Source of the DNA: Candidatus Nanopusillus sp.
GTDB lineage: Archaea; Nanobdellota; Nanobdellia; Nanobdellales; Nanobdellaceae
NCBI GenBank assembly: GCA_049414405.1
Contig: JBMSAQ010000022.1
Coordinates: 1-32,000 of the forward strand
Direction of reading: 5' to 3'
Length of the DNA: 32,000 nucleotides
Position 1 is the first letter of the stretch. Every line of letters starts with the position of its first letter. The position numbers were made by a program, and so were the translations under genes. A model generated the notes under the pieces. That model was not told the origin of the DNA and ran no database searches. It saw only the letters and a program-made list of their open reading frames with translations. Below, one piece after another: positions 3,367-32,000 of this stretch.

Positions 3367-5421
3367 TTAATCAACTTTCTCTCCAGAAAATGTTTCTTGC
3401 CTTCTGCCTGTTCCTCCAAGATCCATTGGTAATTGTGAAAATATTGAAATAGAATATGGAGAGTATCTTGTATATTGAATATAATCTGGAATAATCTGTG
3501 TTCCTCCATATGGCAAGATTGTATTAAATTGGTTTATAATATTTCCATATATATTATAAGGTCTAGCACCAGTAATTAAATTATAATATTCATTTCCATA
3601 CATTGTATGAAATTGATTAGCATAATATCCACCAGGTTCATGTACAATTGTTACTTTTTTATTTTCTAATATATCTCTAATTTTCTCTAATTCTGATGCA
3701 ATAACATCATCCCAACCCATTCCTAATGGTAAATGTGTATCTTCTCCAGCTTGTGCCTCATGGACGTGTAAATGCCTAATTTCTGGTTTAATTTCTTCAA
3801 CCCATTTTAATATATCTTCTTTCTTATATCCATACTTTTCAAACATTTTTATATGTCCAACATCCAATGTAGCTCCTACTCTTTCTTTAACAAATTCATC
3901 TACACTACCATATTTTTTCTCAATTTCTTCTTTTAATTTTTGATAATTATTTATTACTTTTTTTACTTCTTCTCTTATATTATTTAATAATTTTTTCCAT
4001 ATGTCTGGTCTTGTAGCAGGTGCTCCAGGATATGATCCTTCTATATATATATAACCCAAATACTTATCAAAATCCTTATACCACTCATCTTGATTTTTAT
4101 TTATTTCCCTTTCAATTAGCATTCTAATTCCTTCAGCTATTACTTCTGGAGCTGTTTTTATTGCAACTTCTTGATATGGTTTTACAATTGGAATTGGAAA
4201 TTCTGAAAATACTGTATTTTTTAGCTGTGATAATAGACGATTTGTATATTCAATAGATGATATCATATCATTTACAAAATCAAACGTTTTATTCATATAA
4301 TAATCTTTATATGCTGGGCTACTATTATTCTGTACAACTTCTTTAGCAAATTTTGATATTTCATTTTCATAGTTTTCTATTCTCTTTAAGCTATCTTCAA
4401 AATGTTGTTTGTAGAAGGATATCTTATTTCTTACAGCATCTCTTAAATTTGGATCTACTATATCATTTATATTATTTTCTATTGCGTCAATATATTCTTT
4501 TACCTTTTCTAAGAAAGATCTATATTTCTTTAGATCGTATAGAAATTCTCCTATTTTTTCTTGATCTATGCTAGTATATCCAAAATAACTTGTTAATTGA
4601 TAATTGTCTAATAATCTTTTTTTTATTGAATAAAGGTCTCTATCAATATCATTAAATATATTCATCCATACTTTTTCATTTTCTTTATAAATTTCATCAA
4701 CAACAGAAACCGGTTTTCTTGCCCTTCCTACAGCACCAGCCAAATATTTTTCAGGCATAACAAATCCAGCATATTCATAGTTTCCATTTAGATGAATATA
4801 TGCAGCTTCATGTTTTGCAAAGGCCCAAGATGGTACATTTTTTTCTAATGTTTCCATATCAACATTATTACTAACCAACCTATTATATTGTTCTGATGTT
4901 ATAAATCCCAATCTATATAATTTCTCTGCAAAAGATTTTCTAAATTCATAATTATTTAATAGTTCTTCTTTTAATCTTTTTTCAAAATCTTTATCCCATT
5001 GTGTTAATGTAAGATCTCCAGCATGCATGTTTACCTTAATCGGTTCTCCATATATTTTTGCCATTATTCCTGCATTTTCCAATATTACTGATGTTTTGTA
5101 AGCCATCTGCTTTATATTATCTATCCTTATATTCCCTCTTTCATCTGTTGCAGGTAATTGGAAATCACTTTCGGGAGCATGGATTGTAACTTCAACATTA
5201 TTTATTCTTGCATTTCTTGCAATTTCTTCAAATATTTGTCTTGGTATATTTGCCCATCCCTTTTTTCCAGAGAAAGTAAATGTTTGTATTTCTACTCCAG
5301 GATATCCAGCAGATATTTTTGATAAATATGCTTGTAGTTGATTTACAAGTGTAGGATCTGTGCTAGTAGATATTCTCCTATTATATAATTCCTCTGGATA
5401 TTTTTTATCTTCATTATCCAT
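3367..5421 (-). CDS. xylose-isomerase-like TIM-barrel protein, endonuclease IV (AP endonuclease family 2)-like, with large internal insertion
   Basis: By-eye motifs are IHAPES (H81), NMHAGD (H133), YIEGS (E461), LDVGH (D520, H523), LHVHE (H552/H554), EDTH (D561, H563) and IVHEPG (E595). Their order and most spacings match the nine metal ligands of Nfo. About 320 aa of helical sequence is inserted between H133 and E461. Confidence 0.5.
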   Translation of the reverse strand: MDNEDKKYPEELYNRRISTSTDPTLVNQLQAYLSKISAGYPGVEIQTFTFSGKKGWANIPRQIFEEIARNARINNVEVTIHAPESDFQLPATDERGNIRIDNIKQMAYKTSVILENAGIMAKIYGEPIKVNMHAGDLTLTQWDKDFEKRLKEELLNNYEFRKSFAEKLYRLGFITSEQYNRLVSNNVDMETLEKNVPSWAFAKHEAAYIHLNGNYEYAGFVMPEKYLAGAVGRARKPVSVVDEIYKENEKVWMNIFNDIDRDLYSIKKRLLDNYQLTSYFGYTSIDQEKIGEFLYDLKKYRSFLEKVKEYIDAIENNINDIVDPNLRDAVRNKISFYKQHFEDSLKRIENYENEISKFAKEVVQNNSSPAYKDYYMNKTFDFVNDMISSIEYTNRLLSQLKNTVFSEFPIPIVKPYQEVAIKTAPEVIAEGIRMLIEREINKNQDEWYKDFDKYLGYIYIEGSYPGAPATRPDIWKKLLNNIREEVKKVINNYQKLKEEIEKKYGSVDEFVKERVGATLDVGHIKMFEKYGYKKEDILKWVEEIKPEIRHLHVHEAQAGEDTHLPLGMGWDDVIASELEKIRDILENKKVTIVHEPGGYYANQFHTMYGNEYYNLITGARPYNIYGNIINQFNTILPYGGTQIIPDYIQYTRYSPYSISIFSQLPMDLGGTGRRQETFSGEKVD

Positions 5422-5444: not shown

Positions 5445-7127
5445 TTAATAATTTAACATATTGAATGTTTTTTTAAATGTCATATATGTTTTCCATGCAG
5501 TATCTATTGTCTTTTCTTTTGTTTCTTCTATTATTAATTTTCTTTCTTCTTCAATACTTTTTCTTTTTATATTTTTTTCAATATTTGATAAATCCCTACC
5601 AAAAGTTGATATAACTTTAAGTAACCACATTATAATATTTCCTAAAGTTGGAAATATTAATGAAATACTGGATTCTTTTTTTTCTTCCTTCTTTTCCTCT
5701 TTTTTATCTTCTTTTTTTTCTTTTTCTTCGCTATCAAGATATTTTTTTATCCATGCGATACTTGATAATGATCTTTTTATTCTCCCATCTTTTTCTAACT
5801 CTTCTATAAGTTCTCTTGTCCATCTTATTTTATAAGGATCATTTCTTATTTCTTCTGGTTTTGCATCAGATTTTTCAGCAACTATTTTTAATAGTTTTTC
5901 ATCGCTTTTTATTATATCGTATAAAAATACTTCTAGAATTAAGCCAGACATACTTTTTATATAATCATCTGTTAATCCTGTTATATATGCCAAATCTTCA
6001 CTTTCTTGATTTATTATTATAGAATCATATTCTTCTTTTTCAACTAAATATGCTCTAATTACTATATCTATCCTTCCTAGGAAAGAATACATTCTTGCAT
6101 ACGTATCCGTTCTCCCAACCACAGTGGGTATCGCTCTAGTTTTCATATTTATTTCATATAACGGTATGTAATATTTTTCTATTTCTTTTCCTTCTTTTTC
6201 ATCATATTCTTTTACTTTTACCTCTTTTTGATTTGCTATTAATGAAATATTTATAATTGCCGTTTCAAATGCATTTACAACATCTACAGGTTGATCTGGA
6301 TTTTGCAATAATTTTCTTGCAAATTTAAAATATGGTTTTGCAAATTCAACATAATATAATAGAGAGCTCAATTCATGTTTTAAATAAGATTTTAATAAGA
6401 TTATTCTATCATACAAAACTTTTTTATTATTTTCAAGCCAACTATAAAAGTCTATTAATCTACTACTTAATAAATTATATATTCTTCTATTTATTATTCC
6501 ATTATTAAATAATTCATTTAAATCTCTTGGAGTAGTGTTTGCTTGATCATTAAATAATTTATTATATAATTCTTGACCTATTAATTTTTTATTCTTAAAT
6601 TTTTCAAGTTCAGATTTCAGATCTGCTAGAAAAAATAGATCTACAATACTTGGAAACCTTGATGTTTGTAAGTTAATTAAAGCACCCGTACCTCTTTTAT
6701 AATCAACATTAGATAACCACCTCTCTTTTAGTGATAAATAACTTACAAGAGCCTCTTCGGAATTTTTTGATAATAAATTTTCGTATAATACATATACTGA
6801 ATAGAGTTGTTTATATTCATTCAAAATAGAAATAATTGTTCTTGTCAATGCATTAATTAATTCTGCCAACGATCTTGCATTATTTAATACGTTTGTTAAC
6901 CTTTGTCCCATATCTCCAAAAAATGAAGATCCGACGGATGATGTAAAATCATCAGATAATTTATTAATATCCATCTTTAAACTATCTCTAATAAAATCTA
7001 CAAGCCAAAAATATATTTGTTCCATCCTTATATTTGGATTATCTAATATAAGTTTTATTTCTAATATTTTATGTTTATTGTCTTCAATCTTTTCATTTCT
7101 TAGATCATCAATTTTTATATTTTTCAT
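5445..7127 (-). CDS. hypothetical protein, 560 aa, mostly helical, with Lys/Glu-rich linker and C-terminal hydrophobic helix
   Basis: Long clean ORF lying 23 nt upstream of the TIM-barrel gene on the same strand. I recognise no family. The tract EEKEKKEDKKEEKKEEKKE (aa ~466-485) is followed by SSISLIFPTLGNIIMWLLKVISTFG. Confidence 0.7.
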   Translation of the reverse strand: MKNIKIDDLRNEKIEDNKHKILEIKLILDNPNIRMEQIYFWLVDFIRDSLKMDINKLSDDFTSSVGSSFFGDMGQRLTNVLNNARSLAELINALTRTIISILNEYKQLYSVYVLYENLLSKNSEEALVSYLSLKERWLSNVDYKRGTGALINLQTSRFPSIVDLFFLADLKSELEKFKNKKLIGQELYNKLFNDQANTTPRDLNELFNNGIINRRIYNLLSSRLIDFYSWLENNKKVLYDRIILLKSYLKHELSSLLYYVEFAKPYFKFARKLLQNPDQPVDVVNAFETAIINISLIANQKEVKVKEYDEKEGKEIEKYYIPLYEINMKTRAIPTVVGRTDTYARMYSFLGRIDIVIRAYLVEKEEYDSIIINQESEDLAYITGLTDDYIKSMSGLILEVFLYDIIKSDEKLLKIVAEKSDAKPEEIRNDPYKIRWTRELIEELEKDGRIKRSLSSIAWIKKYLDSEEKEKKEDKKEEKKEEKKESSISLIFPTLGNIIMWLLKVISTFGRDLSNIEKNIKRKSIEEERKLIIEETKEKTIDTAWKTYMTFKKTFNMLNY

Positions 7128-21807: not shown

Positions 21808-22194
21808 ATGTATAAGGTAATATCTTTTTTGTATAGGCTAAGAGAGAAGAGTGGTTTAATTATAATTGTAGAAGGTAAGAAAGATAAAGAAGTATTAAAA
21901 GAGTTTGGATTTAATAATGTATATACAATATATGAATTGAAAAAGGATGGTCGGGTATTTTTAAATTATAGAGAGGCAATTATATTAACAGATAATGATA
22001 GTAAAGGAAGAATGTTATATAAATATGTAAGAAATTTATTAGAATCTGATGGGATAATTGTAAATGATATTGAAAGGAGAAAATTCTTTAAATATTTTAG
22101 AGTAAGAGAAGTTGAAGATTTAAGGAAACATATTGAGAAAATAAAGTTTTATATTAATTATTTTGAGAATCTAGAGAAAATTTTGTACTCTTGA
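21808..22194 (+). CDS. small Toprim-domain protein (COG1658 / RNase M5-like)
   Basis: LIIIVEGKKDKEVLKEFGF supplies the conserved Glu and AIILTDNDSKGRMLY supplies the DxD motif, in a 128-aa protein. Confidence 0.65.
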   Translation: MYKVISFLYRLREKSGLIIIVEGKKDKEVLKEFGFNNVYTIYELKKDGRVFLNYREAIILTDNDSKGRMLYKYVRNLLESDGIIVNDIERRKFFKYFRVREVEDLRKHIEKIKFYINYFENLEKILYS

Positions 22195-23545
22195 TTTTCT
22201 TGATTGGGTAGGATGAAGGGTTTTTAATCAATGAACAGATATTATCTGGAGTACATACTCCAATATCTTTATAATATATTTCATTATTGCAATTTGGAGT
22301 TAAATATTTTTTATTATTTTTATATAATTTTTTGTGCCATTCTAGTTGATATTCTATATATCTATCTTTTAACGGATCTTGTAAACTTTCATTCCACTCT
22401 TTTATATATTTTTCAATTTTATTCCAATCCCACCCAATATTTGCGAAGAAATTTATTAATATAAATAGAGATCTTTTTCTACCATCATCCATTTCTTTAT
22501 TGTTTAATATATTTTTTATACATGGGGGAAATAAATCTTCATTTATTTTTATTTTTCTTTTCTTTATTTCTTCTACATCTTTTTTTATTTCTTCAAATCC
22601 TTCCTGATTTTTGTAATTTTCTGCTAATTTGCTAAATTTTATTATTTCAAATTCATTTTTTATTTTCCATAATAATGAATCATTGATTAATTTTTTTAAT
22701 TCCTTAGATTCTTTTCTTTCTAAATCTTCGGTTAAATATGGTATGCCTTCATACGAATAATTGTTTATATTAGAATCTTCGGGATTTAACTTTTTTATAT
22801 AATTCTCTTTTATCGGTATGGATAAATTTTCCGTTTTTTCATTTATCGAATATAAGCATCTAATTAAGTGTCTTGATGATATTAATACTGTATCTATTTC
22901 AATAATATCATATGGATTAAATTCTTCTATATCATTTACCCCATATTCTTTTAATTCATCTTCACTAAATTTTAATAATATTACCTTCTTTAATTTTTCT
23001 TCTATTTCTTTTGATATATATGATGCTAAGATTCTTGCAAGATCAGGGAATAATTTCCTAGTTTCTTCTTCTACAAGATTATCTTTTTTGTATACATTTA
23101 TTATTTCTGGAAATATTTCCCAAGGAATTGCTATATGAAAACCTTTTCCCCCAGAATATTTTATATATACGGGATTAATATTTTTTTCTTTTAAGTAATC
23201 AAATATAATCCTTGCAGCAATTTTAGATAGATCTAAAGATTTTGCATCTATATCTATTATGAAATCCCATCCTAATCTATATTCATTTAAATCCTTTTTT
23301 GAAACTTTCTCACTTAAAATATTTAAATCAACCCATCTTTCAATCGATATATGAAATGAAATAGCACCTTTTTTGATATAATTTATTATATCTTCTTTTG
23401 TTTCTATTTTTGATGGCCTATGTCCAAAATTATTATTTGATAATAAATATCCAACTTCTCTATTTTGTGAAATTTTTACCATATCTTCCAAAATCTCTTT
23501 GTTATTTTGATAAAATTTAATTAAATCATTTATCATTATGCTCAT
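22154..23545 (-). CDS. DNA primase, single-chain fusion of the PriS catalytic domain and the PriL Fe-S C-terminal domain
   Basis: AEP motifs are WDFIIDIDA (DxD), YSGGKGFHIAIPW and IEIDTVLISSRHLIRCLYSINEKT. These are followed by LFPPCIKNIL...GRKRSLFILINFF...YLTPNCNN...GVCTPDNICSLIKNP, the four-Cys PriL-CTD pattern. Confidence 0.85.
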   Translation of the reverse strand: MSIMINDLIKFYQNNKEILEDMVKISQNREVGYLLSNNNFGHRPSKIETKEDIINYIKKGAISFHISIERWVDLNILSEKVSKKDLNEYRLGWDFIIDIDAKSLDLSKIAARIIFDYLKEKNINPVYIKYSGGKGFHIAIPWEIFPEIINVYKKDNLVEEETRKLFPDLARILASYISKEIEEKLKKVILLKFSEDELKEYGVNDIEEFNPYDIIEIDTVLISSRHLIRCLYSINEKTENLSIPIKENYIKKLNPEDSNINNYSYEGIPYLTEDLERKESKELKKLINDSLLWKIKNEFEIIKFSKLAENYKNQEGFEEIKKDVEEIKKRKIKINEDLFPPCIKNILNNKEMDDGRKRSLFILINFFANIGWDWNKIEKYIKEWNESLQDPLKDRYIEYQLEWHKKLYKNNKKYLTPNCNNEIYYKDIGVCTPDNICSLIKNPSSYPIKKIKSTKFSLDSQNN

Positions 23546-27929: not shown

Positions 27930-27972
27930 AATTTACATATATTTTAAAAATGTTTTATAAATATTGCATATT

Positions 27973-28482
27973 ATGGTATCTGTAAGAGATGTGAATGGTC
28001 AGATGCTTGTAGAAAGATTAGCTAGATATTTATTTGAAAATTATAGAGATATAATAAAACCACCTAGCTGGGCATTTTTTATTAAAACAGGACCGGATAA
28101 GGAGAGAAATCCAGATTTTCCTCCAGATGTAGATTATGATGGTGGACCTGGATGGTGGTATTATAGAGCAGCATCGATTTTAAGAAAAGTATATTTATAT
28201 GGACCTATTGGGGTTTCTAGATTGAGAAGAAAATATTCTGGATTAAGAAAAAGAGGAATGGAACCTGGAAAGGTTGTAAGAGGATATGGAAAACTAATAA
28301 GAGAAATATTACATCAATTAGAAAATGCAGGATTAGTTATGGAAATAACTGAAGGAAAGAAAAAGGGAAGAGTTGTAACGAATAATGGAAGAAGTTTATT
28401 AGATAAATTGGCCAATGAAATATATAAAGAATTAAATGACGAAAATAAGAATTTAATTAATTATATAAAATCTGTTTCATGA
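27973..28482 (+). CDS. rps19e: 30S ribosomal protein S19e (eS19)
   Basis: VRDVNGQMLVERLARYL...PPSWAFFIKTG...WWYYRAASILRKVYLYGPIGVSRLRRKYSG matches eS19. I placed the start at ATG 27973; the track start at 27964 is a TTG. Confidence 0.92.
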   Translation: MVSVRDVNGQMLVERLARYLFENYRDIIKPPSWAFFIKTGPDKERNPDFPPDVDYDGGPGWWYYRAASILRKVYLYGPIGVSRLRRKYSGLRKRGMEPGKVVRGYGKLIREILHQLENAGLVMEITEGKKKGRVVTNNGRSLLDKLANEIYKELNDENKNLINYIKSVS

Positions 28483-28949
28483 AAAGTATAAGCTTATGGG
28501 TTGAATTTTTGATATATACAGCATTTGCTATTTCTATACTTTCTTTTGTAATATACTTTGTTCATTTAACAGCTCAAAATAAACAAGATGAATTAAACCT
28601 AAAATATATTATAAATTTATTGACAAATTTGAACTATCAAATAGAAACAATTGGATCTTGTTATTCATGTAATTATAAAGTTTTTGAAAATTTACCACCA
28701 AAAACAACCATATATATTTATCAGGGAAAAATAATGTGTATATATTATTCTACTGCAAATTATTCTCTACAAGTTCCCCCATATATAGATTTAAATATAA
28801 CTAAATTATCCCCAAATAATTATAAATATAATTTTACTATTAATACAATCCCATTTAATTTATTAAATGGATCCAACCTTACAATTACAAATAATCTATG
28901 TTTATTATTAGATAAAAATCAATCAGGTCTATATATTGGTTTATGTTAA
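28479..28949 (+). CDS. putative secreted/pilin-like protein with class III (prepilin-like) signal peptide
   Basis: N-terminus MKS|ISLWVEFLIYTAFAISILSFVIYFV. The mature part is Asn/Tyr/Cys-rich with NYS, NIT, NFT, NGS, NLT and NQS sequons. The start overlaps the rps19e stop (ATGA). Confidence 0.45.
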   Translation: MKSISLWVEFLIYTAFAISILSFVIYFVHLTAQNKQDELNLKYIINLLTNLNYQIETIGSCYSCNYKVFENLPPKTTIYIYQGKIMCIYYSTANYSLQVPPYIDLNITKLSPNNYKYNFTINTIPFNLLNGSNLTITNNLCLLLDKNQSGLYIGLC

Positions 28950-29386
28950 ATACAAAAGAAATTAATATAATAACTATTGGAACTACTTACATTATAACAA
29001 AAACAAATCCAATCTGGAGGATTATATAAAATAAAGTTTTCATTACAATATTTTAGTATACTTTTATTTACAATAAAATATCCATTAAAATAATAGCAAC
29101 AATTTATATTATTTCCAGTACATTCTTGGATAAATAAATTATATGAAGATATACAAATGAAAGAAAAATTATAATTAATATATTTTGTGTAATTCTGAAA
29201 ATGTAATGTATAATTAGATATGTAGATGTATCCAAAGTTTTGATATATGTATATTATTTGATCTTTAAAATTTTTTCCTATTAAATTCGGATTAATGTTA
29301 TCTATTGGGGAAGGATTATAATATGTAATGAAAGATAAAATAATAATAATTATAATTGTTGCTAATAATATATATTGAGATCTCAT
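28946..29386 (-). CDS. putative secreted/pilin-like protein, Cys/Asn/Tyr-rich
   Basis: N-terminus MRS|QYILLATIIIIIILSF. I count 9 Cys by eye, and there are very few Lys or Glu. It is the last gene of a 4-nt-overlapping minus-strand operon. Confidence 0.45.
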   Translation of the reverse strand: MRSQYILLATIIIIIILSFITYYNPSPIDNINPNLIGKNFKDQIIYIYQNFGYIYISNYTLHFQNYTKYINYNFSFICISSYNLFIQECTGNNINCCYYFNGYFIVNKSILKYCNENFILYNPPDWICFCYNVSSSNSYYINFFCI

Positions 29387-29703
29387 TTAAATATAATTAG
29401 TATATATGGATCAAAATAATCTTGGCCAGCATATAAATATTCAAATACCGGTCTATAATTTTGTATATATGTAGAATCTACATGTTTTCCAAAATAACAT
29501 ACTGTAATACTATTATTTGTTAAGTTTATTATCTTATATACATATAGATTATTGTTGCATGAAGAATTTAAGTAAATTAAATTATTAGGATCAAAAGTAT
29601 AAATATTGTAATTATTATATTTACTATAATAAGTATATAAAAAGAAAAATGTTAATATTGTTATTGAAAATGCTAATTCGACCATAATTATCCAACCTCT
29701 CAT
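29383..29703 (-). CDS. putative pilin-like protein
   Basis: N-terminus MRG|WIIMVELAFSITILTFFFLY. It is 106 aa, Asn/Tyr-rich, with two Cys. Confidence 0.45.
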   Translation of the reverse strand: MRGWIIMVELAFSITILTFFFLYTYYSKYNNYNIYTFDPNNLIYLNSSCNNNLYVYKIINLTNNSITVCYFGKHVDSTYIQNYRPVFEYLYAGQDYFDPYILIIFK

Positions 29704-31925
29704 TTTATATATATTATTAATTGATCTTTATATAATGCATTTATTATCGTATTATTTAATACATATATATTAAAGCTTTCAGAATATCTGTAATTATTCA
29801 CAATATTCCCTACGTATACTGTACCGTTAAATATTGTTATATTTAAATTATTAAAATAAAAATATACATCTTGATAGTTTTTAGATATATTAATTAAATT
29901 ATTTAAATTAATTACATTTATTGGTTCAATATAATTTATTTTGATATATGGAATTTGGGTAGAAAATGCTAAATATAATGCTGTTTGTCCATCTAAATTT
30001 GGGTTTGAATATAGATAAAAATAATAATTTAGATAACTATATTTATAATTTAATGTTGCATTTGTGAAATAAAGATTATTATAGTAGTCATACGATGAAA
30101 CATAAGAAATATTTATTATAGGATTATAATTTGTGTATAATATAGAATTTAAGTGTCCTGAACAAATAAAAGTTTGTGTGTAGCATCTTCTTAATATTAT
30201 ACCATTTTTATATTCATGATATAGATATCCATTATATAAATCGTCTAGATCAAATATCTTATTATAAATGTTTGTAGATTTTAAAATAAATCCATATTTG
30301 GGTTGAAAAGTGTTCCAAAATATCATATTATTTGAATAATAATATTTTTGCGTATTAAATATATACCAATAAGTGTTAGAAAATATTATATTCTTTATTG
30401 ATAAATTTGTAGAATTATATAAATACAATAAAGCTAATGAGGCATTATAAATATAGGGAGTTAAATTATAAGGTCCATATTCAGAAGTATAAAATGAAAA
30501 TCCAACTTTAATATATGAAAGAAGGTTTGTAGAATAAGTTGTTGGAATGGAATAATAGCTTCTATTATACATACCTGTTATGTAAGAAAAATATGCTAAA
30601 TTATTATTATATATTGCAAGATTATTATAAGAATTTGGTAATGAAATTTTTCCCTTATCTAGATCGTTATATTGAGAAAAATCATAAGTTATATTTGGAC
30701 CTATAATAAATTTATAATTTTTAGTTAAATTTGGTTGATAAATTATTCTTGTATTTGGTATTACATTATATGGAATTAAATTTATATAATATGCATTAAT
30801 ATTTTGACCAGATACTTGTAACTTAACCTTGTCCCCATCATTATAACAATAATAAACATATAAAGAATCTGAATTTCTAGAAGATTGTAGAGTTATATTA
30901 CAATTATTTCCCAATTGCATATAGGCATTATTAGATGGTATTAAATTTTGAATATTGTTTTGAATATTAAATAATATTAAATAATTGCCTTTTGGAATTC
31001 TATTATTATAAGTAATTGTAAAGGTATTATATCGTATGCAAAAATTACCGTAATATAGAGAACAAGAATAAATATTATTTCCCGGATTCATATATGAAAC
31101 ATTTATAGGAGTATCATTTCTCCAATATTGGCTGAATTGTTGATAACTTTGATAACTAAAATTATCATATACTAGGAATATTCTTTTTCCATCAATTGAA
31201 TAAATACTTATTTCATTTATCGGAGAAATATTTAATATTATATAGCCATATGAAGATATATTTAAACCAACCCAAATTCCATAGGCACCATTATTAAAGC
31301 TATCACAATTTAGATTATTGTTTAAATAACAAAAATAATAATTATTTTCATTTAAATCTTTTACAGATAAATTGTAACCATTTTGTAGCCAATAAAGTAT
31401 AACAGTAGAAGTTATGAATACAGGATAATTGATTAAATTTTGGTTTGATGGATTTGAAACATTTATTAAAACATATTGGGGTTGACTATTATCTATATTA
31501 AAATTTAGAAAATTTGCATAAAAAAACACCCCGACATTTGGATCTAGATATGTATTATTTGTATTATTTAATACCCCAGAATACTTTGTTAAAAAAGATA
31601 TATTCAATGGGTAATAAATTGGAAATGATGTACAAAAATCTTTGTATGCATTTTTATAAATTAAATCGTCATATATTGGAGAATTTGGTAAGCATTGATA
31701 ATACATAGATAAAGGTATTGAAACATTTAGAGATAACAAATAATATTTGGTTTTGATAGAATTCATTATATCATTTATATAATTATTATAATAGTTTATT
31801 TGATTATAATTACTAATATTGTTTATTAAATATCCTTTATAAACTGTTAAATAAAATGTTAAAAATGAAATAAAAATTACAATGGCAATTATACCCTCTA
31901 CTTCTTTTATTATCCCTCTAACCAT
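29700..31925 (-). CDS. large (741 aa) Asn/Tyr-rich putative surface protein with prepilin-like N-terminus
   Basis: N-terminus MVRG|IIKEVEGIIAIVIFISFLTFYL. I count roughly 26 N-x-S/T sequons by eye and about a dozen Cys. It is strongly depleted in Lys and Glu relative to its neighbours. Confidence 0.55.
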   Translation of the reverse strand: MVRGIIKEVEGIIAIVIFISFLTFYLTVYKGYLINNISNYNQINYYNNYINDIMNSIKTKYYLLSLNVSIPLSMYYQCLPNSPIYDDLIYKNAYKDFCTSFPIYYPLNISFLTKYSGVLNNTNNTYLDPNVGVFFYANFLNFNIDNSQPQYVLINVSNPSNQNLINYPVFITSTVILYWLQNGYNLSVKDLNENNYYFCYLNNNLNCDSFNNGAYGIWVGLNISSYGYIILNISPINEISIYSIDGKRIFLVYDNFSYQSYQQFSQYWRNDTPINVSYMNPGNNIYSCSLYYGNFCIRYNTFTITYNNRIPKGNYLILFNIQNNIQNLIPSNNAYMQLGNNCNITLQSSRNSDSLYVYYCYNDGDKVKLQVSGQNINAYYINLIPYNVIPNTRIIYQPNLTKNYKFIIGPNITYDFSQYNDLDKGKISLPNSYNNLAIYNNNLAYFSYITGMYNRSYYSIPTTYSTNLLSYIKVGFSFYTSEYGPYNLTPYIYNASLALLYLYNSTNLSIKNIIFSNTYWYIFNTQKYYYSNNMIFWNTFQPKYGFILKSTNIYNKIFDLDDLYNGYLYHEYKNGIILRRCYTQTFICSGHLNSILYTNYNPIINISYVSSYDYYNNLYFTNATLNYKYSYLNYYFYLYSNPNLDGQTALYLAFSTQIPYIKINYIEPINVINLNNLINISKNYQDVYFYFNNLNITIFNGTVYVGNIVNNYRYSESFNIYVLNNTIINALYKDQLIIYIK

Positions 31926-31999
31926 AACCTCTTTCTAATTAAAGTTGGATCTGAACCCCCATGCCAAGAAACCCTAGGTTTCATTTGAACAGGATATAT
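31910..31999 (-). CDS. 3' end of an ORF entering from the right window edge
   Basis: The minus-strand frame is open from 31999 to TAA at 31912-31910 (..IYPVQMKPRVSWHGGSDPTLIRKRLWLEG*). It overlaps the start of the 741-aa gene by 16 nt. Its identity is unknown. Confidence 0.3.
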   Translation of the reverse strand: MYPVQMKPRVSWHGGSDPTLIRKRLWLEG

Positions 32000-32000
32000 T

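What the first reader, a model, noticed from the sequence alone, without database searches (positions are those of the whole stretch)
29700..31925. 741-aa giant with extreme Asn/Tyr bias, ~26 N-glycosylation sequons and paired cysteines
Seen in sequence: after the N-terminal helix the protein is almost free of Lys, Glu and Arg. It is dominated by N, Y, I, S and L. By eye I count about 26 N-x-S/T sequons (NIS, NVS, NNT, NLS, NFS, NDT, NIT, NLT, NRS, NAS, NST, NAT, NGT). About a dozen Cys occur in local pairs: FCYLNNNLNCD, YSCSLYYGNFC, NNCNIT..YYCY, RRCYTQTFIC. AT-rich codon bias alone does not explain this, because neighbouring cytoplasmic proteins spend the same bias on Lys, Glu and Ile. Inference: it is a heavily N-glycosylated, disulfide-stabilised beta-rich extracellular protein, such as an adhesin, a fibre tip or an S-layer-like component. 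I see no clear internal sequence repeat, so it is not a simple repeat adhesin.
Basis: partly seen in the sequence, partly recalled or inferred. Interest (0 to 1): 0.65.

Follow-up and report, generated by a model that had tools for sequence, protein, structure and literature searches.

The report
Nanoarchaeal pilin-like surface glycoprotein with DUF2341
The 741-residue protein is a real, conserved cell-surface protein of the tiny parasitic archaeon Nanopusillus; it probably carries many sugar chains, is a candidate for host attachment, and sits in an operon with small pilin-like proteins and an unusual ATPase, but its function is untested.

Summary
ORF 29700-31925(-) encodes 741 aa with N 16.6%, Y 14.4% and K+E+R 6.3%. 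It has 26 N-x-S/T sequons (15.8±3.4 expected from composition, p=0.003) and 10 Cys in five local pairs.

The window is Candidatus Nanopusillus (Nanoarchaeota/DPANN). Orthologues occur only in Nanopusillaceae-type nanoarchaea. Most sequons and three Cys pairs are conserved, and a fourth pair is gained or lost together.

Three neighbours (106, 146, 156 aa) share the same composition and sequon density. The bias therefore marks this organism's extracellular proteins in general, not this protein alone.

New here:
- Residues ~153-261 are a divergent DUF2341 domain (hhalign 97.4%, E 1e-11). Large tip-adhesin candidates in archaeal type IV pilus loci carry this domain.
- The N-terminus (M-x-R-G, conserved Glu, hydrophobic helix) is pilin-like. 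Two of the three neighbours have the same layout; the 146-aa protein lacks the Glu.
- The gene overlaps by 16 nt the end of a soluble HerA/FtsK-superfamily ATPase gene. That pairing persists in a distant relative with different flanking genes.

Best reading: an N-glycosylated, disulfide-stabilised surface or pilus-associated adhesin. It is not the S-layer protein. Structure models were poor, the N. acidilobi proteome did not detect it, and function is untested. It is a new member of a known kind, of moderate interest.

The parts
29700..31925 (-). Target gene: a 741-aa surface protein, the orthologue of N. acidilobi Nps_02805 and Nst1_321. Layout: N-terminal pilin-like segment (aa 1-33); helix plus a small alpha/beta domain with the invariant C78-C98 pair (aa ~40-140); divergent DUF2341 beta-sandwich with C199-C207 (aa ~153-240); an optional beta-rich middle region (aa ~245-395), absent in Nanoclepta-type homologues; and a C-terminal beta-rich region of unknown fold (aa ~396-741).
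31146..31469 (-). DNA encoding the DUF2341-like domain and the start of the next domain (aa ~153-260). It includes the FCY-x5-C and IWV motifs and the 'DGKRIFLVYDNF' junction motif.
   Evidence: Profile search hits to Pfam-confirmed DUF2341 proteins. hhalign probability 97.4%, E 1.2e-11. pLDDT 76-86 in model 2.
31827..31925 (-). N-terminal pilin-like (class III-like) segment, MVRGIIKEVEGIIAIVIFISFLTFYLTVY. A basic residue plus Gly lies at positions 3-4, conserved Glu at 8 and 10, then a hydrophobic helix of about 20 residues.
   Evidence: Hydropathy, near-invariant columns, and a long N-terminal helix in the models (low confidence).
29383..29703 (-). 106-aa pilin-like small protein (MRGWIIMVE..., single N-terminal helix, 2 Cys, 3 sequons). 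It overlaps the target's stop codon by 4 nt. Orthologue of Nps_02810.
   Evidence: Its length is conserved in all genera.
28946..29386 (-). 146-aa Cys-rich small protein (MRSQYILLAT..., single N-terminal helix, 8 Cys, 5 sequons). It is a weak paralogue of the 106-aa protein. Orthologue of Nps_02815.
28479..28949 (+). 156-aa pilin-like small protein (MKSISLWVEF..., single N-terminal helix, 5 Cys, 6 sequons). It is convergent with the operon and overlaps the S19e gene by 4 nt. Orthologue of Nps_02820.
31910..32000 (-). 3' end (last 29 codons plus stop) of the upstream gene for a soluble 432-aa DUF87 / HerA-FtsK-superfamily ATPase (Nps_02800, arCOG00284). It overlaps the target's start codon by 16 nt. 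The rest of the gene lies beyond the window.
   Evidence: frame and stop; context; family

Best explanation
The gene encodes a lineage-specific cell-surface protein of Nanopusillus-type nanoarchaea.

Shown:
- It is a conserved, purifying-selected gene.
- It has one N-terminal hydrophobic helix and a large ectodomain poor in charged residues.
- Sequons are in excess and conserved.
- Cys pairs are conserved or co-vary.
- It carries a divergent DUF2341 domain.
- It lies in an operon-like arrangement: ATPase, 741-aa gene, 106-aa gene, 146-aa gene, with a convergent 156-aa gene.

Inferred mechanism: the protein is inserted through the Sec system or the type IV pilin pathway by its pilin-like N-terminus. 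AglB N-glycosylates it at roughly 20 or more sites. Four or five short-range disulfides stabilise it for about 80 °C and acidic surroundings. It is then displayed on the cell surface.

The display could take two forms. One is the large tip or accessory subunit of a type-IV-pilus-like fibre, primed by the three small pilin-like proteins, much as minor pilins work with PilY1 or as GspH-I-J-K work in type II secretion. The other is a membrane-anchored spike. In either form the DUF2341 and following beta-sandwich domains would bind a ligand, most plausibly the glycosylated envelope of the crenarchaeal host.

The N/Y/I/S/L bias is what AT-rich codons give when charged residues are avoided on an acid-exposed surface.
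For: - Real gene. There are 54 homologues. Orthologues are 74-89% identical within Nanopusillus, 49% in YN1, 45% in Nanobdella and 43% in Nanoclepta. dN/dS is 0.27.
- Sequons. 26 against 15.8±3.4 expected. 21 of 26 are conserved in at least 25 of 34 sequences. Sequon Asn conservation is 0.89 against 0.80, and +2 Ser/Thr 0.87 against 0.72.
- Cysteines. Pairs 78/98, 199/207 and 342/360 are invariant. Pair 288/296 is present together or absent together in 18 and 16 sequences.
- DUF2341. An HMM of the family hits Pfam-confirmed DUF2341 proteins at E 6e-13 to 8e-4 in a library of 1.8 billion proteins. hhalign gives 97.4%, E 1.2e-11. Large DUF2341 proteins are proposed pilus-tip adhesins in archaeal T4P loci (PMC4858521). 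The one in the M. maripaludis epd pilus locus was hit repeatedly in a transposon screen for transformation-defective mutants (PMC10133366).
- Pilin-like N-termini. All four proteins begin M-(x)-[RK]-[GS] followed by a helix. Three of them have a conserved Glu six residues after the G/S. The models give a roughly 58-residue N-terminal helix, at low confidence.
- Pilus machinery. Nanoarchaeal T4P ATPase and TadC genes exist, but their pilins 'could not be identified' (PMC4858521; Nps_01915/20 and Nps_03250-60).
- Rate of change. It is the fastest-evolving gene of a 24-gene syntenic block. Variation is concentrated in discrete segments: 281-300, 321-340, 421-480 and 581-600.
- Lineage biology. 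N. acidilobi surfaces bind wheat germ agglutinin (PMC4935971), and aglBDE is present in Nanobdella (10.1101/2023.10.27.564410).
- Acid adaptation. K+E+R is 4.5-6.4% in orthologues from acidic springs and 13.6% in Nanoclepta. That Nanoclepta's habitat is less acidic rests on my own knowledge and was not checked here.
Against: - There is no direct evidence of glycosylation, disulfides, surface location or pilus association.
- Nps_02805 and its four cluster partners were not detected in the N. acidilobi proteome.
- The Pfam DUF2341 model itself does not hit the protein at E<=0.1.
- Both AlphaFold models are poor (pLDDT 49.8 and 57.7). Foldseek gives no PDB match at E<=1e-3.
- No PilB-type ATPase, TadC or prepilin peptidase lies in the cluster.
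- Only the second candidate cleavage site, EG/IIAI, fits my recalled FlaFind motif, and the small proteins do not fit it.
- A prepilin peptidase is reported missing from two nanoarchaea (PMC4858521) and is not named in the N. acidilobi gene table.
- DUF2341 also occurs in ordinary Sec-secreted proteins such as P0066 and P0071, so the domain does not prove a pilus link.
Confidence: 0.6

Rival explanations
1. It is a membrane-anchored envelope protein: a type II signal-anchor that is not processed as a pilin and is not part of a fibre. It would sit between the membrane and the S-layer or project through it, as a structural or receptor spike. The three small proteins would be unrelated single-pass envelope proteins.
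For: Each protein has a single N-terminal helix, and no prepilin peptidase has been identified in nanoarchaea (PMC4858521). No T4P genes lie adjacent. The small proteins have no Pfam pilin or archaellin hit. Many nanoarchaeal 'hypothetical external' proteins have exactly this topology (PMC6142677).
Against: A Glu is conserved at a fixed distance from an [RK][GS] motif in three of the four proteins. That is hard to explain for a simple anchor. DUF2341 is recurrently linked to T4P loci (PMC4858521, PMC10133366). The four genes are clustered tightly and keep their lengths across genera.
Confidence: 0.25
2. It is the extracellular component of a previously undescribed export or cell-cell transfer apparatus. 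The apparatus would be powered by the adjacent soluble HerA/FtsK-superfamily ATPase (arCOG00284). The single-pass proteins would form the membrane and extracellular part, in a role comparable to Ced/Ted DNA import, T4SS or T7SS machines.
For: The ATPase stop and the target start overlap by 16 nt. The pairing is kept in Nanopusillus, Nanobsidianus, YN1, Nanobdella and Nanoclepta. It is also kept in a distant homologue, P0062 in L023, with a 4-nt overlap and different flanking genes. The ATPase is a second paralogue, distinct from the repair HerA (Nps_01240) that goes with NurA. Distant ATPase homologues lie beside giant sequon-rich surface proteins in L020 and L021. The ATPase has weak hits to the EssC, FtsK, Zot and CedD families.
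Against: The ATPase has no membrane segment. In four of seven contexts outside this family it has no surface-protein neighbour. Synteny of the whole region is high among Nanopusillaceae, so adjacency there carries little weight. The ATPase evolves like a housekeeping gene (89% identity against 58% for the target; dN/dS 0.08). No polytopic channel protein lies in the cluster.
Confidence: 0.12
3. It is the S-layer protein, or an S-layer anchoring protein, of Nanopusillus.
For: It is large, sequon-rich, poor in tryptic sites and undetected by proteomics. The same was said of the predicted S-layer protein of N. acidilobi (PMC4935971).
Against: The predicted S-layer protein is a different gene: Nps760 rather than Nps_02805. 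In Nanobdella the S-layer candidates are MJ1_0160 and MJ1_0707, with Ig-like folds and C-terminal anchors. Here the anchor is N-terminal and the gene sits in a small operon behind an ATPase. There are no S-layer domain hits.
Confidence: 0.03

Closest known systems
Large DUF2341 (PF10102, MJ1470-type) proteins with class III signal peptides in archaeal type IV pilus loci (Methanococcus Epd locus, arCOG03508; Makarova, Koonin & Albers 2016)
   Same: It has an N-terminal pilin-like hydrophobic segment, a DUF2341 beta-sandwich with the FCY...C / IWV motifs, and further beta-rich domains after the 'G-x-x-[IV]F-x-x-YD-x-F' junction. It is encoded beside several small pilin-like proteins. The proposed role is tip or accessory adhesin.
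   Different: The DUF2341 domain is too divergent for the Pfam model. No PilB, TadC or EppA genes lie in the cluster; a HerA-superfamily ATPase lies upstream instead. The roughly 350-residue C-terminal region has no detectable relatives. The family is restricted to Nanopusillaceae-type nanoarchaea.
Bacterial minor-pilin/PilY1 priming complex, and the T2SS GspH-I-J-K pseudopilus tip
   Same: Functional analogy only. Three small pilin-like proteins and one much larger partner are encoded together. [quoted passage not shown]
   Different: There is no sequence homology. PilY1 lacks a pilin N-terminus. The Glu would be at +6 rather than +5. The processing enzyme is unidentified.
Ced/Ted DNA-import systems of Thermoproteota (CedA, CedA1/A2, CedB HerA/VirB4-like ATPase)
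   Same: A DUF87/HerA-superfamily ATPase is encoded with small membrane proteins in a hyperthermophilic archaeon.
   Different: There is no polytopic CedA. The small proteins have one helix, not a VirB2-like hairpin. The ATPase lacks a membrane segment and scores only E 0.003 against the NCBIfam CedD model, which was the only Ced model hit.
'Hypothetical external' proteins of Nanoarchaeota (Jarett et al. 2018) and the lectin-, pectin-lyase- and thermopsin-like glycoproteins of Nanobdella (Kato et al. preprint 2023)
   Same: It shares their topology (single N-terminal helix), many sequons, elevated non-synonymous variation and a proposed role in host recognition.
   Different: Neither paper singles out this family. 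It was annotated only as 'predicted membrane or secreted protein'. The DUF2341 domain and the ATPase coupling are pointed out here.

Membership tests
DUF2341 (PF10102) domain family | Significant match to the family profile | tested here: inconclusive
   The Pfam HMM gives no hit at E<=0.1 on the protein itself. However, the family HMM retrieves Pfam-confirmed DUF2341 proteins at E down to 6e-13. Profile-profile hhalign gives probability 97.4%, E 1.2e-11 over residues 153-261. It is a member by remote-homology criteria, but falls below Pfam's own threshold.
DUF2341 (PF10102) domain family | Conserved motifs: N-P-x at the first strand, F-C-Y-x(4-6)-C, I-W-V, and the following G-x-x-[IV]-F-x-x-Y-D-x-F junction | tested here: met
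   The alignment and the sequences show SNPSNQ, YFCYLNNNLNC, GIWV and DGKRIFLVYDNF. C199 and C207 are invariant in the family.
Archaeal type IV pilin-like proteins (class III signal peptide substrates) | N-terminal [KR]-[GA] cleavage motif followed by a hydrophobic helix (FlaFind-type pattern, recalled from memory) | tested here: inconclusive
   The N-termini are MVRG/IIKEVEG/IIAIVIF..., MRG/WIIMVE..., MRS/QYILL... and MKS/ISLWVE.... Only EG-IIAI fits the strict pattern. S at -1 and W at +1 are atypical.
Archaeal type IV pilin-like proteins (class III signal peptide substrates) | Processing by a prepilin peptidase (PibD/FlaK/EppA) encoded in the genome | not testable with these tools
   None is named in the N. 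acidilobi gene table. Makarova 2016 reports none in two nanoarchaea. The whole genome could not be searched here.
Archaeal type IV pilin-like proteins (class III signal peptide substrates) | Genomic association with a PilB/FlaI-type ATPase and a TadC/FlaJ platform | tested here: not met
   The neighbours are a DUF87 ATPase, S19e and L37ae. TadC and VirB11-type genes lie elsewhere in the genome, at Nps_01915/20 and Nps_03250-60.
Archaeal type IV pilin-like proteins (class III signal peptide substrates) | Pilin fold: a roughly 50-residue N-terminal helix packed on a beta-sheet | tested here: inconclusive
   The models show helix 2-59 with a kink at ~35, followed by strands, but pLDDT is 39-63 there.
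Archaeal N-glycoproteins (AglB substrates) | N-x-S/T sequons on an extracytoplasmic domain, in excess and conserved | tested here: met
Archaeal N-glycoproteins (AglB substrates) | Oligosaccharyltransferase AglB in the organism, and glycans attached | not testable with these tools
   aglBDE is reported for Nanobdella, and wheat germ agglutinin stains N. acidilobi. No OST is named in the N. acidilobi table. No glycoproteomics exists.
Archaeal S-layer proteins | It is the predicted or most abundant lattice protein; C-terminal anchor or SlaA/SlaB-like architecture | tested here: not met
   The S-layer candidates are different genes (Nps760; MJ1_0160/0707). The anchor here is N-terminal and there is no S-layer domain hit.
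Ced/Ted DNA import system | Polytopic CedA, two-helix CedA1/TedC pilin, and a membrane-anchored CedB ATPase | tested here: not met
   All four neighbours have one hydrophobic segment. The ATPase has none. The CedD model scores E 0.003, 16 bits against a 600-bit cutoff.

The most novel reading that the evidence does not exclude
The five-gene unit (HerA/FtsK-superfamily ATPase arCOG00284, the 741-aa DUF2341 protein and three small pilin-like proteins) is a previously undescribed filament or attachment machine of nanoarchaea. A non-PilB ATPase would drive assembly or extrusion of leader-poor pilin-like subunits, in a lineage that appears to lack a prepilin peptidase. The 741-aa glycoprotein would be its host-binding tip. 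It would then be part of the long-sought molecular basis of nanoarchaeon-host attachment.
Probability: 0.15. Interest if true: 0.8.

Novelty: new member of a known kind. Interest (0 to 1): 0.45.

Why it matters
How nanoarchaea and other DPANN archaea recognise and hold on to their hosts is unknown at the molecular level. Type IV pilus machinery has been found in nanoarchaeal genomes, but its pilins have not (PMC4858521). This cluster offers concrete candidates: one large DUF2341 glycoprotein and three small pilin-like proteins. All are conserved in the two cultivated systems, Nanopusillus-Acidilobus and Nanobdella-Metallosphaera, where they can be tested. The variable segments mapped here are candidate host-specificity determinants. 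The tight coupling to a DPANN-wide HerA-like ATPase of unknown role is a second lead. If the protein is only a generic envelope glycoprotein, the finding is ordinary for a secreted protein of an AT-rich acidophile-associated archaeon.

Tried and rejected
- Direct family searches on the target and the three small proteins found nothing: Pfam, NCBIfam and PHROGs by sequence, and PDB by both single sequence and profile.
- AlphaFold2 on the full length (34-sequence alignment) and on residues 1-410 (19 sequences) gave pLDDT 49.8 and 57.7. Foldseek against PDB gave no hit at E<=1e-3, only weak CBM6/CBM35, GH38 beta-sandwich and toxin receptor-binding domains. I do not rely on these.
- The third large protein search, with an extended alignment, returned no new distant members.
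- S-layer identity was rejected (see rival explanations).
- A Ced-like system was rejected on its defining features.
- A spurious ORF or a pure AT-bias artefact was rejected, because of conservation, dN/dS 0.27, and conserved Cys and sequons.
- A universal link between the ATPase and surface proteins was tested in seven non-syntenic contexts. It held in only three (L020, L021, L023), so it is kept as a minority hypothesis.
- I looked for a divergent prepilin peptidase (GxGD motif) among the window's unannotated membrane ORFs and found none.
- Literature searches for arCOG00284, and for DPANN together with DUF87, found nothing.
Full report
**Observation**

The ORF at 29700-31925 on the minus strand is real and encodes 741 aa.
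- Composition: N 16.6%, Y 14.4%, I 12.1%, L 9.0%, S 8.1%, with K+E+R only 6.3%.
- Comparison: cytoplasmic ORFs of this 25%-GC window have 20-37% K+E+R and 4-19% N+Y.
- Sequons: 26 N-x-S/T. Shuffling the mature sequence gives 15.8±3.4 (p=0.003), so sequons exceed what the Asn-rich composition alone produces.
- Cysteines: ten, in five short-range pairs (78/98, 199/207, 288/296, 342/360, 581/588).
- Topology: a single hydrophobic segment at the N-terminus.
- Repeats: no internal protein repeats and only trivial AT-rich tandem repeats in the DNA.

One correction is needed. The three adjacent small ORFs are 106 aa at 29383-29703(-), 146 aa at 28946-29386(-) and 156 aa at 28479-28949(+). They have the same composition and sequon density (2.8-3.8 per 100 aa) and the same single N-terminal helix. 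The bias is therefore a property of this organism's extracytoplasmic proteins, not a peculiarity of one protein.

**Organism and distribution**

An identical protein and 53 homologues exist in metagenomes and genomes, all from Nanopusillus-type nanoarchaea.

| Relative | Identity to the window protein |
|---|---|
| Ca. Nanopusillus / Nanobsidianus | 74-89% |
| Unnamed Nanopusillaceae | 56-58% |
| Strain YN1 | 49% |
| Nanobdella aerobiophila | 45% |
| Nanoclepta | 43% (shorter protein) |

A search of 1.8 billion representative proteins adds a few more distant, shorter relatives, P0055-P0063. [quoted passage not shown] The paper's predicted S-layer protein, Nps760, is a different gene.

**Constraint on the features**

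- 21 of the 26 sequons are conserved in at least 25 of 34 aligned sequences.
- Sequon Asn is more conserved than other Asn (0.89 against 0.80, p=0.006). The +2 Ser/Thr is more conserved than other Ser/Thr (0.87 against 0.72, p=0.004).
- Three Cys pairs are invariant. The 288/296 pair is present together in 18 sequences and absent together in 16. Cys counts are even in 31 of 34 sequences.
- Tyr is highly conserved (0.88), which suggests a structural role.
- Among seven Nanopusillus loci, dN/dS is 0.27 for this gene. The small neighbours give 0.09-0.26 (s106 0.09, s146 0.19, s156 0.26), housekeeping neighbours 0.05-0.14 and the ATPase 0.08.
- It is the most diverged protein of a 24-gene syntenic block: 58% to YN1, where the others range from 62% to 89%.
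- Variation clusters in segments 281-300, 321-340, 421-480 and 581-600.

Selection is therefore purifying overall and relaxed relative to the neighbours. The variable patches fit a surface protein. Gene-wide diversifying selection is not shown.

**What the protein is**

Direct searches of Pfam, NCBIfam, PHROGs and PDB sequences find nothing. The family profile, however, hits many proteins through query region ~150-260. Those proteins carry Pfam DUF2341. Profile-profile comparison gives 97.4% probability, E 1.2e-11, for residues 153-261. The characteristic motifs are shared: NP-x at the first strand, FCY-x5-C, IWV, and the G-x-x-[IV]F-x-x-YD-x-F junction.

DUF2341 (MJ1470-type) is annotated as a predicted component of type IV pili-like systems. 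Makarova et al. found it in large proteins of methanococcal pilus loci and proposed that they are tip adhesins (PMC4858521). The DUF2341 gene of the M. maripaludis epd locus was hit repeatedly in a transposon screen for transformation-defective mutants (PMC10133366). The domain also occurs in Sec-secreted proteins such as P0066 and P0071, so it points to a surface role but does not prove a pilus link.

Shorter family members (Nanoclepta, P0055, P0058) lack residues ~250-395, so that region is an optional module. Residues ~396-741 have no detectable relatives.

AlphaFold models are poor (pLDDT 49.8 and 57.7). They are beta-rich, reasonably confident only for the DUF2341 part (76-86), and show a long N-terminal helix. 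Foldseek gives only weak, non-significant jelly-roll and CBM-like matches.

**N-termini**

All four proteins start M-(x)-[RK]-[GS] followed directly by a hydrophobic helix. In three of them a Glu is conserved across genera six residues after the G/S: MVRG-IVKEIE, MRG-WIILVE and MKS-ISLWVE. This resembles type IV pilin N-termini. Only one candidate site (EG/IIAI) fits the strict archaeal motif as I recall it. A prepilin peptidase has not been identified in nanoarchaea and is not named in the N. acidilobi table. Pilin-type processing is therefore an inference.

The 106- and 146-aa proteins are weak paralogues of each other. None of the small proteins hits a pilin or archaellin model.

**Genomic context**

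The target's ATG overlaps by 16 nt the stop of an upstream gene whose last 29 codons lie at 31910-31999(-). In longer contigs that gene encodes a soluble 432-aa DUF87 / HerA-FtsK-superfamily ATPase with Walker A motif GKRGQGKS. It is annotated arCOG00284 in N. acidilobi (Nps_02800). It is distinct from the bona fide HerA (Nps_01240, arCOG00280) and from NurA.

The order ATPase, large protein, 106, 146, then a convergent 156, is kept in Nanopusillus, Nanobsidianus, YN1, Nanobdella and Nanoclepta. The whole region is syntenic there, so this alone is weak evidence. More telling, a distant homologue (P0062, 25% identity) in a contig with different flanking genes still follows the ATPase with a 4-nt overlap.

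The ATPase itself is DPANN-wide, with more than 4000 hits and 46-52% identity to Woesearchaeota. In six further contexts it lay beside giant sequon-rich surface proteins twice (L020, L021). Four times it did not (L019, L024, L025, L026); three of those (L019, L024, L026) carry a conserved 99-aa ORF just downstream, two of these also have CBS-domain and SurA-like genes nearby, and L025 has RadA and RPA-like genes instead. A functional link between the ATPase and the surface proteins is possible but unproven.

**Mechanism proposed**

Most likely (0.6): an N-glycosylated, disulfide-stabilised surface protein held or delivered by a pilin-like N-terminus, exposing DUF2341 and further beta-sandwich domains for binding. 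It would act either as the large tip or accessory subunit of a type-IV-pilus-like fibre together with the three small proteins, or as a membrane-anchored spike. Host-envelope recognition is the plausible target.

Several points from the literature fit this.
- Nanoarchaeal T4P ATPase and TadC genes lack identified pilins (PMC4858521).
- 'Hypothetical external' proteins carry excess non-synonymous SNPs (PMC6142677).
- N. acidilobi has a GlcNAc-positive surface (PMC4935971).
- aglBDE is present in Nanobdella (10.1101/2023.10.27.564410).

Charged-residue depletion looks like acid adaptation expressed through AT-rich codons. K+E+R is 4.5-6.4% in orthologues from acidic springs but 13.6% in Nanoclepta. 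Nanoclepta's less acidic habitat is from my own knowledge.

Rivals: a plain signal-anchored envelope protein (0.25); part of a new ATPase-driven export or transfer machine (0.12); an S-layer protein (0.03, rejected).

**Against and unknown**

The orthologue and its four partners were not detected in the N. acidilobi proteome. Few tryptic sites and glycosylation make this weak evidence, but low expression in culture is possible. Nothing here demonstrates glycosylation, disulfides, localisation or binding.

**Verdict**

The S-layer option is rejected, and the claim that this protein is compositionally exceptional is tempered. It is a new, divergent member of a known kind (large DUF2341 surface or pilus-associated proteins) in a lineage where attachment factors are sought. 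Interest is moderate.

Noticed in passing
window 31910-32000(-) and L001:8718-10016: The upstream DUF87/HerA-superfamily ATPase (arCOG00284) is a highly conserved, DPANN-wide paralogue, distinct from the repair HerA. In Woesearchaeota-type contigs it is followed by a conserved ~99-aa ORF and often a CBS-domain gene, with a SurA-like PPIase upstream. Its function is unknown.
   Followed up: partly
window 29383-29703(-) and 28946-29386(-): The 106-aa and 146-aa small proteins are weak paralogues (cross-genus BLASTP E ~3e-4). The 146-aa protein carries 8 conserved Cys in about 115 ectodomain residues.
   Followed up: partly
alignment A1, P0054 (Nanoclepta) compared with the Nanopusillus/YN1 orthologues: Charged-residue content of the orthologues differs sharply: K+E+R is 13.6% in Nanoclepta and 4.5-6.4% in relatives from acidic springs. 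This suggests the 'no Lys/Glu/Arg' feature is an adaptation of exposed surfaces to acid.
   Followed up: partly
window protein residues 581/588 (DNA ~30162-30185): C581 is unique to the window's protein. Most orthologues keep C588 but carry the other Cys near residue ~467, which implies that those two regions are close in space and that the disulfide partner has been swapped.
   Followed up: no
L023:8311-9764: In the distant relative's contig, the ATPase-plus-large-protein pair is followed by an NTPase gene, a ferredoxin gene and then archaellin-type (PF01917) FlaF/FlaG-like small genes, instead of the 106/146/156 trio.
   Followed up: no
window 5445-7127(-): A 560-aa Lys/Glu-rich ORF with a poly-(E/K) tract near the C-terminus and no Pfam family at E<=1e-3. 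The adjacent 684-aa ORF (3367-5421) matches Pfam only over a short AP_endonuc_2 segment.
   Followed up: no
window 22154-23545(-): A 463-aa ORF whose orthologue carries both the small and the large DNA primase subunit domains, that is, a fused PriS-PriL primase.
   Followed up: no
window 28479-28482 and 27964-28482(+): The 156-aa surface-protein gene overlaps by 4 nt the end of the ribosomal protein S19e gene and looks co-transcribed with it. That is an odd pairing for an envelope protein.
   Followed up: no
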